Part shown: in pieces, positions 53-12,000 of the stretch
How positions within the stretch are numbered: the stretch's first letter is position 1
Layout: each line of letters begins with the position of its first letter
Assembly (NCBI GenBank): GCA_002269645.1
Contig: NIVC01004418.1
Coordinates: 1 to 46,657, forward strand
DNA: 46,657 nt
Source of the DNA: Macrostomum lignano
Taxonomy: Eukaryota
Reading direction: 5' to 3'
Position numbers and translations under genes: made by a program
The notes under the pieces: model-generated
Told to the model about the DNA's origin: nothing
The model's database searches: none
The model's input: the letters and a program-made list of their open reading frames with translations, nothing else

Positions 53-3000
53 CTGGGTGGCGAGAGAGATGCGATTGATAAATTGAATAAAACTTCTGTC
101 GCCAAGGCGATGGCACTTTTAATAATGTGTTGTCACTTAAACGATTTCGTTTCTTAGTAGTCTAGCTATTTATGTAACCACGCTCTGGTCGCGGGATAGG
201 GCATGGGAACTTTTTCGAAAGTGCCTCCTATCCCGTGCACCCTCTGCACAGAGCTGTCGAGACTCGGCCAGGTCTCCGACCGGGCCTGGAGACTCCCGCT
301 CTGCTGCACCCCTCCTGCTGCCTTGGTCCCGTCTCTCCTGCCGCCACACCTGCCTTTCCGGAGCCCCTACCCCTTTCTGTACCTCCCCCTCTACCCTATC
401 TCTTCTGTTCCCGCCCTATTCTTCTGTACTTTCTCTACCTCCTCCCTTTTTTTGTCTCCCTCTGCACTCTTTTCCTGCGCTGTCCCCTCTTTCCCTGTGT
501 CTACTTACAGTACTTTGTGTGCTCACCGTCTCCCCATCCCCTCTCAAACTCCCAAACGGTGACGCAAGTCGTGTGACCCCTTCTCCCCCTCGGTGACTCA
601 TCGATGACTCATCCCCCTCTTTGCGCAACCTTTTCTCACGCTATTGTTCTCCTTCCCAAATTTCTCATGTGACACCCACCCCACCTCCGCTTCTATTGTT
701 CTCGTTTTTGCTTCTTTTGTTCTCTCGACCCCCACCAATTATCACATTTTCTCCGATTTTCTCTTTCTTTTGTTCTCGTTTTCGCACCTAATTATCACCT
801 TTTCTCCAATTTACTTTTCCATTGTTCTCAGTTTTCCCCAATTATCCCCGATTTCCAATTCCTTTGTTCTCGACCCCAGCCCTATTGTTCTCAATGTTTG
901 CTTGCGCAACACTTTCGCGACCACCCGCTGCGCCAATTATCCCCCACCCCACCTCCGGATTGCGCAATTTCCCGATTTCTCATGTTGCTATGCCGGTCTC
1001 ATGCTTCTCATCATGACTCATTCTGACGTCATTCTGCCGGCAGCCAATCAGAGAGAGGGAGCCATGGTAACGACCTTGAGGAGGCGGCTGTGAGGTCTAT
1101 AAAAAAGCGATTTCGGCATGAGAATACTCAACTGAGTTTATCTCTGTTCCTCTCCTCGTCCTTCTTTGGACTTGCTGTCAGATTGAGTTCTGACCCATTC
1201 GTCTATAAGACGAATCCCTGCCGGCCGCGGTCTGTTACCGCCAAGTTATCCTTAGCTCCCCAAGTGAGCTCGCCTATCGGCCAGCGGTCTGATACCGCCC
1301 ATCATCAGCATCGCCTGATCTACATCAGCGCCTCGTCGCTCCAGCGCATCGCCGCTTCACCGTCTGCCTGACTGCAGCCTACAGCCGCCCTCGGTCACTC
1401 CGCTCTCTCTCTCTCTGTGCAGCTGCCGGTAAGTTCCTGCTACTAATTTGTGCTCTAATTGCCTTTGCTTATCCGGGGTTTGCCTATTTTCCATTGTCTG
1501 ATTAGAGAGCTGAGCCAATTGTGATACCGTATCTTTTGCTGTATTTTACTCAATAGTGAAGCCGCCTAATTGCCTGCTTATTTGCCTAAGGGCCTAATTA
1601 TTAACTATTAACTAACTTCATCATTATTCAATCTTTCACCATCATTTCACTCATGGCTTGCTAAGCCTTTCTCCCGGGGGCAAAGCATAAGGAAGTTTGG
1701 GTAAGCTAATGGCCTCTCCCCGTGCAAAGCCCGCCTGTGAGTGCGTGCTGCGGGGCCGCGTGTGCGTGCAGTAGAGGGATTAGCGAGTCTTGGCACAGAA
1801 TGGCAGTAGGAAGGTTGCAACCCCATGCTAACGCGTCCCTTCGCCCTGAGCAATCTAAACTGTAGACAGTACATGTTCGCCTCATACTACTCTTAGTAAT
1901 CAAAGTCGCAAGTCAGCCTCGCTCACAGCCACAAAGGATCCCCTGCTGAGAAATCCTCCAGGATTGAGCCCAGAGTTCCCGATCATGCCCAAGCAGAGTC
2001 CCTGTACTCGGCTGCATGCGTCTCCCCTGTTAGCCTAAATCCCCTGGTAACCAATCCAGGCGGGGCTCTAGCCTCGAGAGGTCTGGTAGAAAGATCCAGG
2101 TGCGCCAGGTCACATAGAGTGGTGGCAGCCACTCGGTCATACCATGACCGAGTGACCAACTATTGCACCTTGGCTACAGGTGGGGTCCATGTGGGTCCTT
2201 GGCCCTCTGGTCACGAAGCGCTACCAAAGCTACTAATCATGTGGGCGGGACAGTCTGGTGCTGGAGGTCCGTCAGGTCATTGCCCGGTCATAGGCAGCCT
2301 ACGGTCATTGCCCCCTCTAGCCATGCGTTCGTCTCTCTACGGAGCGGACAGGCGACAAGGGCGGTTACATCAAAATGGTGGCAGCGGTGGGATCTGGTGC
2401 AAACAGCGCTGAGTTTCGGACTGGTGGTTTAGATGTGACAAGCGCACCTGTGGCATCCCTCAGAATGGTGGCCGAAGCGCAAAGAGTGCCATGTCTAAAT
2501 CTACCAATCGTAAAAATCGCCAATCGTCATTCTCTTCTCCCATGGCGTGAGGCAACAAAATCCAAAAATATTAATGTAACTTTTCAAATTTTTCGGGCTG
2601 CGAATTCGTTCAATTCATTCGAAATTTCCAAATTCATTCATTCGCCAAAAGCCCCTGATTCAATTTAAAATTAATTTAGCCGATCAGTTTCAGCGCTAGA
2701 AAGTGTGAAGTGGTAGACGAGCGGATTTGATTACAATCAGAATAGCTACCTGGTAACGGAGTGTGTGAAGAACTGCGAAAGTGAATTTTCCGGACTCACT
2801 TTCTATTTCATGGTAATATGCTTTATTTCCCCTCCCTTTCTTTCTCTCGCCTAGCCTACAGCAGAACTGTGTGAGTGTTGAGGTGGACAGCCAGCCAGGT
2901 ACGGAAGCCTCATCACGCAAGCACAGGGAAGCTGGAAGCGAAGCATTTCTTTCCTTTGTCCTACCTCTTTCTTTTACTCGGGGGAGTGTAACAGTCGCTC

Positions 3001-9000: not shown

Positions 9001-12000
9001 ACAGCAACAGTTGAAATTTTTGAAATTCTGTATTGCACTCCAACCTATGTATCTCGTGTTGTGAATTTATTGCTATCCCCTCTATTTTATCGCCTTTTTC
9101 CATTCCCGCTCGCGGTTTGTTAATTCTGTGATTTCACGTTCGGTTGAGATCCCGCTCCCGTCTGTGTGGTTCCATGTTGGGCAGTGATGATGACGGAACC
9201 AGTTCCGTCACAAAAGGCAGTGGGGGTGTGATGTAACCACGCTCTGGTCGCGGGATAGGGCATGGGAACTTTTTCGAAAGTGCCTCCTATCCCGTGCACC
9301 CTCTGCACAGAGCTGTCGAGACTCGGCCAGGTCTCCGACCGGGCCTGGAGACTCCCGCTCTGCTGCACCCCTCCTGCTGCCTTGGTCCCGTCTCTCCTGC
9401 CGCCACACCTGCCTTTCCGGAGCCCCTACCCCTTTCTGTACCTCCCCCTCTACCCTATCTCTTCTGTTCCCGCCCTATTCTTCCTGTACTTTCTCTACCT
9501 CCTCCCTTTTTTTTGTCTCCCTCTGCACTCTTTTCCTGCGCTGTCCCCTCTTTCCCTGTGTCTACTTACAGTACTTTGTGTGCTCACCGTCTCCCCATCC
9601 CCTCTCAAACTCCCAAACGGTGACGCAAGTCGTGTGACCCCTTCTCCCCCTCGGTGACTCATCGATGACTCATCCCCCTCTATTGCGCAACCTTTTCTCA
9701 CGCTATTGTTCTCCTTCCCAAATTTCTCATGTGACACCCACCCCACCTCCGCTTCTATTGTTCTCGTTTTTGCTTCTTTTGTTCTCTCGACCCCCACCAA
9801 TTATCACATTTTCTCCGATTTTCTCTTTCTTTTGTTCTCGTTTTCGCACCTAATTATCACCTTTTCTCCAATGTTTACTTTTCCATTGTTCTCAGTTTTC
9901 CCCAATTATCCCCGATTTCCAATTCCTTTGTTCTCGACCCCAGCCCTATTGTTCTCAATGTTTGCTTGCGCAACACTTTCGCGACCACCCGCTGCGCCAA
10001 TTATCCCCCACCCCACCTCCGGATTGCGCAATTTCCCGATTTCTCATGTTGCTATGCCGGTCTCATGCTTCTCATCATGACTCATTCTGACGTCATTCTG
10101 CCGGCAGCCAATCAGAGAGAGGGAGCCATGGTAACGACCTTGAGGAGGCGGCTGTGAGGTCTATAAAAGGAAGCGATTTCGGCATGAGAATACTCAACTG
10201 AGTTTATCTCTGTTCCTCTCCTCGTCCTTCTTTGGACTTGCTGTCAGATTGAGTTCTGACCCATTCGTCTATAAGACGAATCCCTGCCGGCCCGCGGTCT
10301 GTTACCGCCAAGTTATCCTTAGCTCCCCAAGTGAGCTCGCCTATCGGCCAGCGGTCTGATACCGCCCGCATCATCAGCATCGCCTGATCTACATCAGCGC
10401 CCCGTCGCTCCAGCGCATCGCCGCTTCACCGTCTGCCTGACTGCAGCCTACAGCCGCCCTCGGTCACTCCGCCTCTCTCTCTCTCTGTGCAGCTGCCGGT
10501 AAGTTCCTGCTACTAATTTGTGCTCTAATTGCCTTTGCTTATCCGGGGTTTGCCTATTTTCCATTGTCTGATTAGAGAGCTGAGCCAATTGTGATACCGT
10601 ATCTTTTGCTGTATTTTACTCAATAGTGAAGCTGCCTAATTGCCTGCTTATTTGCCTAAGGGCCTAATTATTAACTATTAACTAACTTCATCATTTTTCA
10701 ATCTTTCACCATCATTTCACTCATGGCTTGCTAAGCCTTTCTCCCGGGGTGGCAAAGCATAAGGAAGTTTGGGTAAGCTAATGGCCTCTCCCCGTGCACA
10801 GCCCGCCTGTGAGTGCGTGCTGCGGGGCCGCGTGTGCGTGCAGTAGAGGGATTAGCGAGTCTTGGCACAGAATGGCAGTAGGAAGGTTGCAACCCCATGC
10901 TAACGCGTCCCTTCGCCCTGAGCAATCTAAACTGTAGATAGTACATGTTCGCCTCATACTACTCTTAGTAATCAAAGTCGCAAGTCAGCCTCGCTCACAG
11001 CCACAAAGGATCCCCTGCTGAGAAATCCTCCAGGATTGAGCCCAGAGTTCCCGATCATGCCCCAAGCAGAGTCCCTGTACTCGGCTGCATGCGTCTCCCC
11101 TGTTAGCCTAAATCCCCTGGTAACCAATCCAGGCGGGGCTCTAGCCTCGAGAGGTCTGGTAGAAAGATCCAGGTGCGCCAGGTCACATAGAGTGGTGGCA
11201 GCCACTCGGTCATACCATGACCGAGTGACCAACTATTGCACCTTGGCTACAGGTGGGGTCCATGTGGGTCCTTGGCCCTCTGGTCACGAAGCGCTACCAA
11301 AGCTACTAATCATGTGGGCGGGACAGTCTGGTGCTGGAGGTCCGTCAGGTCATTGCCCGGTCCTAGGCAGCCTACGGTCATTGCCCCCTCTAGCCATGCG
11401 TTCGTCTCTCTACGGAGCGGACAGGCGACAAGGGCGGTTACATCACTATCTTAATCTTCATCCCATTTCTCGCTTCATTCCCACTCATTCCAGTCTCTAC
11501 TTCTCACTCAGTCCAATCTCTACTTCTCACTCAGTCCAATCTCTACTTCTCACTCAGTCCAATCTCTACTTCTCACCCATTCCCATCTCTACTTCTCACT
11601 CAGTCCAATCTCTACTTCTCACTCAGTCCAATCTCTACTTATCACTCAGTCCAATCTCTACTTATCACTCATTCCCATCTCTACTTCTCACTCATTCCAA
11701 TCTCTACTTCTCACCCATTCCCATCTCTACTTCTCACTCAGTCCAATCTCTACTTCTCACTCATTCCAAACACTACTTCTCACTCATTCCAATCTCTACT
11801 TATCACTCATTCCAATCTCTACTTCTCACTCATTCCAAACACTACTTCTCACTCATTCCAATCTCTACTTCTCACTCATTCCCATCTCTACTTCTTACTC
11901 ATTCCAAACACTACTTCTCACTCATTCCAATCTCTACTTCTCACTCATTCCAATCTCTACTTCTCACTCATTCCAATCTCTACTTCTCACTCATTCCAAT

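What the first reader, a model, noticed from the sequence alone, without database searches (positions are those of the whole stretch)
170..11445. Young, structurally intact 11.3-kb LTR element that encodes only Gag and protease, with no RT/RH/IN, and carries kilobases of unexplained cargo
Seen: ~99% identical 2.2-kb LTRs, CTAT TSD, perfect tRNA-Leu PBS, PPT, open gag, a frameshift signal and a protease ORF ending in a clean stop at 6689. About 2.5 kb with no pol-like motifs follows, and about 2.4 kb of non-gag leader precedes it. Known: non-autonomous LTR classes exist (LARD, TR-GAG, gag-only elements), but keeping gag plus a frameshift-regulated protease while lacking RT/IN is less usual. Inference: this is a capsid-supplying partner in a two-component retroelement system (borrowing RT/IN in trans), or a lineage specialising as an Arc-like RNA-packaging vehicle.
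Basis: partly seen in the sequence, partly recalled or inferred. Interest (0 to 1): 0.75.

Follow-up and report, generated by a model that had tools for sequence, protein, structure and literature searches.

The report
Capsid-and-protease-only LTR retrotransposon
A freshly inserted jumping gene in an animal genome (likely a flatworm) encodes only a capsid protein and a protease, with no copying or insertion enzymes, so it likely borrows those from a relative, a design already described in wheat.

Summary
The element is real and very young: 2.2-kb LTRs with 7 substitutions, CTAT target duplication, 18-nt PBS, PPT. It encodes an Arc/PNMA-like capsid without a zinc knuckle, a GGGAAAC slippery site with a predicted pseudoknot, and a complete retropepsin that stops at 6689. 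No RT, RNase H, integrase or env remnant was found (0 of 118 other ORFs). 'Intact' is not true of the window's letters: gag-protease has two frame breaks, probably consensus errors. Best reading: a semi-autonomous Gag-protease family that borrows RT and integrase in trans, like wheat RLG_Sabrina_SA. The scan has noted this layout before on other DNA. The helper was not found (no genome held). The 'cargo' is partly explained: a possible 3.3-kb leader intron, six decayed copies of the LTR-end/PBS junction, and a possible spliced antisense unit. The Arc-like host role is untested. The copy sits antisense in an intron of a PSME4-like gene.

The parts
166..169 (+). 5' target-site duplication CTAT
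170..2372 (+). 5' LTR, 2203 nt (starts TT instead of TG; ends CA)
   Evidence: 7 substitutions, 14 indel columns against the 3' LTR
1098..1103 (+). TATA-like box of the LTR promoter (predicted)
   Evidence: only plus-strand TATAAA in each LTR
1429..4727 (+). possible leader intron, GTAAGT donor in the LTR to a polypyrimidine-AG acceptor 15 nt before the ATG at 4743 (predicted; no such joint listed in contigs)
   Evidence: not in table 5
2376..2393 (+). 18-nt primer-binding site, 3 nt after the LTR; tRNA-Leu match is recalled
   Evidence: same 18-mer in L002 upstream of an ORF
2394..4742 (+). non-coding leader, no substitution against contigs of 4 runs
   Evidence: no relevant Pfam hit; table 8
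4743..6187 (+). gag: first ATG 4743 (frame stops at 4898), main frame open 4820-6187 with ATG 4850; one frame break near the start; capsid domain about 5030-5580, no CCHC knuckle
6166..6172 (+). slippery heptamer G GGA AAC in gag phase
6181..6228 (+). predicted H-type pseudoknot (stem 6181-6187/6204-6210; loop GGCCC with 6224-6228), 8-nt spacer
   Evidence: 28 of 5000 shuffles match as well; MFE fold not exceptional, z 0.05
6173..6336 (+). -1 frame after the slippery site; stops at 6336 in the window (second frame break lies before the protease)
6309..6689 (+). complete retropepsin domain, active-site motif D-G-G, stop 6687-6689
   Evidence: (ASPRV1, E 1.1e-7), (PF13975 E 0.008)
6690..9211 (+). 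3' non-coding region with no pol or env remnant; 7124-8600 differs by 2-7% from some public contigs
7278..7684 (-). GC-rich possible antisense exon after a TTTTCAG acceptor (G at 7685); open frame, acidic/Pro-rich with a hydrophobic end, no start codon before residue 136
   Evidence: one X15 contig has a loose end at 7685 (table 7)
7891..8144 (+). six decayed copies of the 14-nt LTR-end/PBS junction
   Evidence: 8 matches in the window against 0.48 expected, 0 of 100 shuffles reach 8
8514..8621 (-). possible antisense promoter and first exon (TATAAAA at 8621, GTAAGT donor at 8514)
   Evidence: prediction only
9212..9228 (+). polypurine tract, imperfect
9229..11445 (+). 3' LTR, 2217 nt, TGATGTAACC...GGTTACATCA
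11446..11449 (+). 3' target-site duplication CTAT
53..12786 (-). host intron of a PSME4/PA200-like gene that holds the element in antisense

Best explanation
This is a very young LTR retrotransposon copy, likely of Ty3/gypsy descent, that encodes a capsid protein and a retroviral-type protease, predicted to be joined by a -1 ribosomal frameshift, and no reverse transcriptase, RNase H or integrase, so it likely belongs to a multi-copy semi-autonomous family that borrows those enzymes from a helper element. Shown: LTRs, TSD, PBS, PPT, Gag, protease, absence of pol, and the same protease-stop junction in public contigs. Inferred: the LTR drives a genome-length RNA (and perhaps a spliced mRNA that drops the leader); most ribosomes make Gag and a minority slip at GGGAAAC to make Gag-protease; the particle or a mixed particle takes up a helper's Gag-Pol; the helper's RT primes on the tRNA at the PBS and on the PPT, and its integrase uses the TG...CA ends, giving a 4-bp duplication. 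Keeping the frameshift would hold the protease at the low ratio needed to mature an excess of Gag.
For: LTR pair with 7 substitutions in 2203 nt and a perfect 4-bp TSD means recent reverse transcription and integration without an own RT or IN (0 of 118 ORFs; no convincing pol motif; no tblastn hit of P0001's integrase end). Gag: 4 relatives at 23-29% among 1.84 billion proteins, carrying PNMA and/or Retrotrans_gag domains; best fold matches Arc, PNMA2, Ty3 capsid (weak scores). The protease is full length and the stop follows the domain's end closely, unlike a random deletion point. X1 record 3 (4840-7121) and X15 record 12 (6025-7685) cross the stop unbroken, X2 record 22 (6652-7671) also spans it, and no joint or loose end is listed there. 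More than one variant of the 3' region exists (X15 records 13 and 14; X2 record 23), and two X2 contigs leave the LTR end at 2372 into other DNA. The LTR is 2.2-6.1 times deeper than the leader at one place in 4 of 4 runs (weak, depth is no copy number). Precedent with the same coding content: RLG_Sabrina_SA (PMC9744471).
Against: No helper and no second full copy was seen; no genome is held. The 3' variants could be alleles or duplicated chromosomes, not separate insertions. Contigs drop rare variants and 230 loose ends were not shown, so a rare pol-bearing sibling is not excluded. The frameshift, the splicing and protease activity are untested; the active site reads D-G-G, not D-S/T-G, and the later G-x-D motif reads G-S-A (canonical motifs recalled). 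The window itself has two frame breaks. Gag has no zinc knuckle, so how it packages RNA is open.
Confidence: 0.7

Rival explanations
1. A recent internal-deletion derivative of an autonomous family with the same LTR: gag and protease are carried along passively and have not been kept by selection.
For: LTR deeper than the internal region. One-sided forks in the contigs: within the PBS (X1 and X5 long contigs start at 2359 against 2344 in X15 and X2), at 4869 (X1, X15) and at 6035 (X15 record 11 goes on for 327 letters unlike the window), which may be sisters with other internal content (inference from contig ends). Leader and gag are nearly invariant, as in a very recent burst.
Against: No fork at or near the protease stop in the pieces listed; 2.5 kb after the stop has no integrase remnant, whereas a fresh deletion usually leaves pol pieces; the stop follows the protease domain's end; Gag has also lost the knuckle that 2 of 4 relatives show by Pfam.
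Confidence: 0.17
2. A still-mobile family whose Gag (and protease) also serves the host, as zebrafish Bik-1/Bik-2 Gag does, or a PEG10/Arc-like RNA carrier in the making.
For: Same coding design as PEG10 (capsid, -1 frameshift, protease; PMC10516033 passages). Knuckle-less capsid, as in Arc. Young pol-less Bik families are needed for zebrafish development (PMC12067270 passages). 20 of 24 listed runs, from 8 studies, hold 76-82% of the internal region's words.
Against: No expression, tissue or phenotype data here. All cis signals for mobility are kept. The Arc-like fold is common to Ty3/gypsy Gags and scores are weak (E 0.045; Z 6.4).
Confidence: 0.08
3. Assembly artefact: pol was collapsed or lost in a low-accuracy long-read consensus.
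For: The window does carry small consensus errors: 9 of the 10 LTR-to-LTR indel sites are listed as letters put in by the public contigs (table 4).
Against: Independent contigs cross the protease stop and the whole 3' region joins the LTR (joint 9228 to 172 in 4 of 4 runs); all 30 of 30 bins are covered in each run.
Confidence: 0.02

Closest known systems
RLG_Sabrina_SA of wheat and barley, 'semi-autonomous' gypsy elements (PMC9744471, passages seen)
   Same: LTR element with GAG and protease only, no RT or INT, long internal region, presumed mobilisation by a partner that shares PBS and LTR ends
   Different: Animal host; Gag and protease in two frames with a slippery site, where the paper describes one GAG-Pro ORF; helper and copy number unknown here
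BHIKHARI Bik-1/Bik-2 of zebrafish (PMC12067270, passages)
   Same: Young pol-less LTR family of an animal, near-identical copies, helper unknown
   Different: Bik encodes Gag only and is a lokiretrovirus; this element keeps a protease; no host function shown here
PEG10 / RTL3 domesticated metaviral genes (PMC10516033, passages)
   Same: Capsid, -1 frameshift, protease
   Different: PEG10 is an old fixed host gene (at least about 160 My); this is a fresh insertion with LTRs, PBS, PPT and TSD
Retand gypsy elements of plants (PMC11963269, abstract and passages)
   Same: Long region before the 3' LTR with short repeat arrays and antisense frames
   Different: Retand antisense ORFs are long and mostly carry TRP28; the frame here is 151 aa, has no domain hit, no early ATG and no sign of selection
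TR-GAG and LARD of plants (search listing only; definitions recalled)
   Same: Non-autonomous LTR elements without RT or IN
   Different: LARD is non-coding and TR-GAG is small and Gag-centred; this is 11.3 kb with Gag and protease

Membership tests
LTR retrotransposon (structural) | two LTRs with TG...CA ends and a target-site duplication | tested here: met
   5' LTR starts TT, 3' LTR TG; CTAT on both sides
LTR retrotransposon (structural) | PBS complementary to a host tRNA 3' end | tested here: inconclusive
   18-nt TGG... tract 3 nt after the LTR; tRNA-Leu is recalled; ARAGORN found no tRNA in 2 of 2 loci that hold the 18-mer
LTR retrotransposon (structural) | polypurine tract before the 3' LTR | tested here: met
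   9212-9228, 14 of 17 purines
Ty3/gypsy (Metaviridae) | RT phylogeny and PR-RT-RH-IN order | not testable with these tools
   the element has no RT, RH or IN
Ty3/gypsy (Metaviridae) | two-lobed Arc/PNMA/Ty3-type capsid | tested here: met
   top fold hits Arc and PNMA2 (E 0.045 and 0.083, Z 6.4, rmsd 5.9 over 139); weak but concordant
Semi-autonomous Gag-protease elements (RLG_Sabrina_SA type) | Gag and protease kept, RT and INT absent | tested here: met
Semi-autonomous Gag-protease elements (RLG_Sabrina_SA type) | many copies with the same layout | tested here: inconclusive
   same junction in contigs of several studies and at least two 3' variants; copies not counted
Semi-autonomous Gag-protease elements (RLG_Sabrina_SA type) | autonomous partner sharing PBS and LTR termini | not testable with these tools
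   no genome held; only contig forks and LTR depth as hints
RLG_Sabrina lineage itself | grass host, single GAG-Pro ORF, tRNA-Asp PBS | tested here: not met
   animal-type flanking genes, two frames with a slippery site; Sabrina features
LARD | no coding capacity (recalled definition) | tested here: not met
   Gag and protease present
BHIKHARI-type gag-only elements | gag only, no pol component | tested here: not met
   protease present; Bik definition
PEG10/Arc-type domesticated capsid gene | old fixed locus conserved across species, no longer mobile | tested here: not met
   near-identical LTRs and TSD; no close orthologue
PEG10/Arc-type domesticated capsid gene | -1 frameshift into a protease | tested here: inconclusive
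   signal present and beyond chance, but untested, and the window has a frame break before the protease
PEG10/Arc-type domesticated capsid gene | host function or RNA transfer | not testable with these tools
   needs knock-down and particle work
   TG...CA ends and 4-bp TSD

The most novel reading that the evidence does not exclude
A still-jumping animal LTR family that already has PEG10's design (capsid, -1 frameshift, protease, nothing else), has lost the zinc knuckle like Arc, uses an array of PBS-junction copies in its 3' region as primer-tRNA bait or packaging signal, runs its own spliced antisense gene, and whose capsids serve the host as well as its helper: a live intermediate between selfish retrotransposon and domesticated capsid gene.
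Probability: 0.08. Interest if true: 0.82.

Novelty: new member of a known kind. Interest (0 to 1): 0.4.

Why it matters
If the family is as read here, it extends the Gag-protease 'semi-autonomous' class from grasses to an animal and shows that the gag/-1 frameshift/protease module of PEG10 can be a stable mobile state, not only a product of domestication. If the host is Macrostomum lignano (inferred, not shown), it can be tested with RNAi and transgenes. Such elements are also easy to miss: the 2017 genome annotation ran LTRharvest with a minimum TSD of 5 (PMC5730564, passage), and this element has a 4-bp TSD; surveys anchored on RT would skip it too (recalled for DARTS).

Tried and rejected
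Own genome: none held, so no copy count, dN/dS or helper search. Word-indexed protein searches found nothing: Gag near length, protease longer, Gag alignment longer; weak evidence of absence. Related loci: Gag alignment 0 of 208 stretches in viral contigs and 0 of 156 in metagenomes; protease 0 of 23 in viral contigs; 5 of 545 metagenome hits were bacterial transcription-regulator genes matched by chance and were dropped. Single-sequence model of the protease failed (pLDDT 34) and was not searched. Rfam: 0 matches at E<=1 in 1-12000. No tRNA in the window. No canonical three-unit heat-shock element in the LTR, so it is not like the heat-induced lineages of 10.1101/2024.12.18.629116. Expression: no RNA holder listed; nothing is concluded on transcription. 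The predicted joints 1428-4728 and 8515-7684 are not in table 5. The PBS-like array is not spared by variation (4 of 14 listed variant places fall in the six copies, 2.8 expected) and folds worse than 100 of 100 shuffles. The 5' leader start folds no better than chance (z 0.63). The antisense frame shows no third-position bias (1 of 4 listed variants) and no Pfam hit. L001 holds the 18-mer inside a phage coding sequence by chance. Paper searches with no hit; one search listed 6 of 7 papers, none by title or abstract start on an animal Gag-frameshift-protease family.
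Full report
Observation. The element spans 170-11445. The LTRs (170-2372, 9229-11445) align over 2217 columns with 7 substitutions and 14 indel columns at 10 sites, all letters missing from the 5' copy. Nine of those 10 sites are listed as letters put in by public contigs (table 4; 35 rows not shown), so the window is a consensus with small errors and the LTRs are closer than 99.1%. CTAT flanks both ends. The 3' LTR has a 10-nt terminal inverted repeat. An 18-nt TGG-tract follows the 5' LTR after 3 nt and a purine-rich tract precedes the 3' LTR. 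That the PBS matches tRNA-Leu is recalled; no call showed it.

Coding content. The main gag frame is open 4820-6187. Its nearest relatives among 1.84 billion proteins are 4 sequences at 23-29% identity, with PNMA and/or Retrotrans_gag domains; the best is a UniRef entry named for Macrostomum lignano. The ESM Atlas gives Retrotrans_gag clusters at 0.93-0.94. A single-sequence model (pLDDT 65) ranks Arc and PNMA2 capsids first, though weakly. Unlike P0002 and P0004, this Gag has no CCHC knuckle: 1 Cys in 445 residues. GGGAAAC at 6166-6172 is the only slippery heptamer in gag phase and is followed after 8 nt by a possible 7+5-pair pseudoknot, matched by 28 of 5000 shuffles; the plain MFE fold is unremarkable. 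The ORF 6309-6689 matches ASPRV1 over nearly its whole length (E 1.1e-7), keeps the catalytic Asp in a D-G-G motif, and stops just after the domain. None of 118 other stop-free ORFs (35 aa or more in leader and 3' region, 45 or more in the LTR) hits a pol or env family.

Correction to 'intact'. In the window the ATG at 4743 is out of frame with gag, and the -1 frame stops at 6336 while the protease is in the third frame. In one search (table 8, worked through) contig pieces place one gap within 4730-4840 (X5 record 25 has one gap, X15 record 11 none from 4840) and one within 5881-6374 (X5 records 25-27; X2 record 21 agrees). These intervals hold the two breaks, so the breaks are probably errors of the window (inference). 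The letters were not shown and were not pursued.

The refutation test. Twenty of 24 listed runs, from 8 studies of one organism, hold 76-82% of the internal region's words. I laid 4 of them, one per study, on 60-9228. All 30 bins are covered in each. X1 record 3 runs 4840-7121 with 1 substitution, X15 record 12 runs 6025-7685, X2 record 22 runs 6652-7671; in X5 the listed pieces break at 6631 and resume at 6732. No joint or loose end is listed at the protease stop. The 3' region joins the LTR start in 4 of 4 runs. So the pol-less layout is real and is the main form. Limits: contigs drop rare variants, 230 loose ends and 2498 pieces were not shown, and one of the runs may be the window's source.

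Is it a family, and is there a helper? Hints only. The 3' region occurs in at least two versions (X15 records 13 and 14; X2 record 23), two X2 contigs leave the LTR end into other DNA, and at place 1104 the LTR is 6.1, 4.6, 4.7 and 2.2 times deeper than the leader contig (the tool warns that depth is no copy number). The long leader contigs start at 2359 in X1 and X5 but 2344 in X15 and X2; with 31-letter words that puts a fork inside the PBS in two studies, as expected if another element shares LTR and PBS start but not the interior (inference). Further forks lie at 4869 and 6035. These arms could hold the helper, deleted derivatives or insertions; they also keep alive the rival that this is a recent deletion derivative.

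The 'cargo'. The leader lies between a GTAAGT donor in the LTR (1429) and a polypyrimidine-AG acceptor at 4727, 15 nt before the first ATG, so it may be an intron that is removed from the Gag mRNA and kept in the genome RNA; no such joint was listed. The 3' region holds six decayed copies of the 14-nt LTR-end/PBS junction at 7891-8144 (8 matches in the window, 0.48 expected). They are not spared by variation (4 of 14 places, 2.8 expected), so decay of a repeat is as likely as function. On the minus strand there is a TATAAAA (8621), a donor (8514), an acceptor (7685) and a GC-rich open frame. One X15 contig has a loose end exactly at 7685, one of only 3 TTTCAG sites on that strand in 6856 nt. 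That suggests antisense splicing but rests on one contig; the frame has no early ATG, no domain and no sign of selection.

Mechanism. Shown: a recent insertion with all cis signals, capsid and protease genes, no pol. Inferred: Gag and a minority of Gag-protease are made through the slippery site; RT, RNase H and integrase come from a helper in mixed particles; the protease is kept to mature the extra Gag. Confidence 0.7. Rivals: recent deletion derivative 0.17, host-serving capsid 0.08, artefact 0.02.

Comparison. Zebrafish Bik-1/2 are young gag-only families with a developmental role (PMC12067270, passages; PMC13269885, passages). PEG10 has the same coding design but is an old host gene (PMC10516033, passages). 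Retand elements have 3' repeat arrays and antisense ORFs (PMC11963269, passages). Troyka was considered and rejected (PMC12440569, passages). Of the M. lignano survey (10.1101/2024.12.18.629116) I read parts 1 and 2 of 3: 455 lineages, no pol-less family described in the text; its Table S1 was not seen and may bear on novelty. I found no paper on an animal Gag-frameshift-protease family; the library lacks most subscription journals and Repbase was not searchable.

Host and site. The genome is animal-like, rich in minisatellites, and the copy lies antisense in an intron of a PSME4-like gene. A Macrostomum flatworm is my inference from the best Gag relative and the repeat landscape, not a result.

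Verdict. Real, young, pol-less Gag-protease LTR element; a new, probably animal member of a known kind. Interest 0.4.

Noticed in passing
window 1-16473, minus strand: Exons of a PSME4/PA200-like gene (HEAT_PSME4_mid, E 1.2e-6). The element fills 11.3 kb of a 12.7-kb intron (donor 12786, acceptor 53; phases fit), 113 nt from the acceptor, in antisense.
   Followed up: partly
window 6035 (run X15, record 11): The contig that carries gag leaves the window here and goes on for 327 letters unlike it; the next contig starts at 6025. An insertion in that sample's copy or a sister with another gag end; not seen in X1, X2, X5.
   Followed up: partly
window 4840-4869 (runs X1, X15): Long contigs break here and depth falls (358 to 294; 239 to 144) with no other contig laid in the bin: a one-sided fork whose other arm is not shown.
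   Followed up: partly
window 7124-8600: The window differs by 2-7% from the main public contigs here but is nearly identical over 2359-7121, which suggests a mosaic of two subfamilies or a fast-changing 3' region.
   Followed up: partly
window 11450-12700, 13400-14100, 14570-15330, 24380-26780, 27400-29100, 37700-38200, 39000-39400, 41600-42600, 44300-44650: Dense minisatellites (units of 23, 17, 21, 16, 30, 4, 20, 16 and 14 nt) fill the host introns and spacers.
   Followed up: no
window 35104-35973, plus strand: Exon of a neprilysin-type peptidase M13 gene (E 2.8e-8).
   Followed up: no
window 32521-33171, plus strand: 216-aa open frame with a Cys/Trp-rich stretch and a hydrophobic segment; no Pfam hit at E<=0.01.
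   Followed up: no
L002 169-486: An IMG/VR contig holds the same 18-nt tract plus 3 further identical letters, followed by an ORF; it reads like the PBS and gag start of another LTR element filed among viral contigs (my reading).
   Followed up: no
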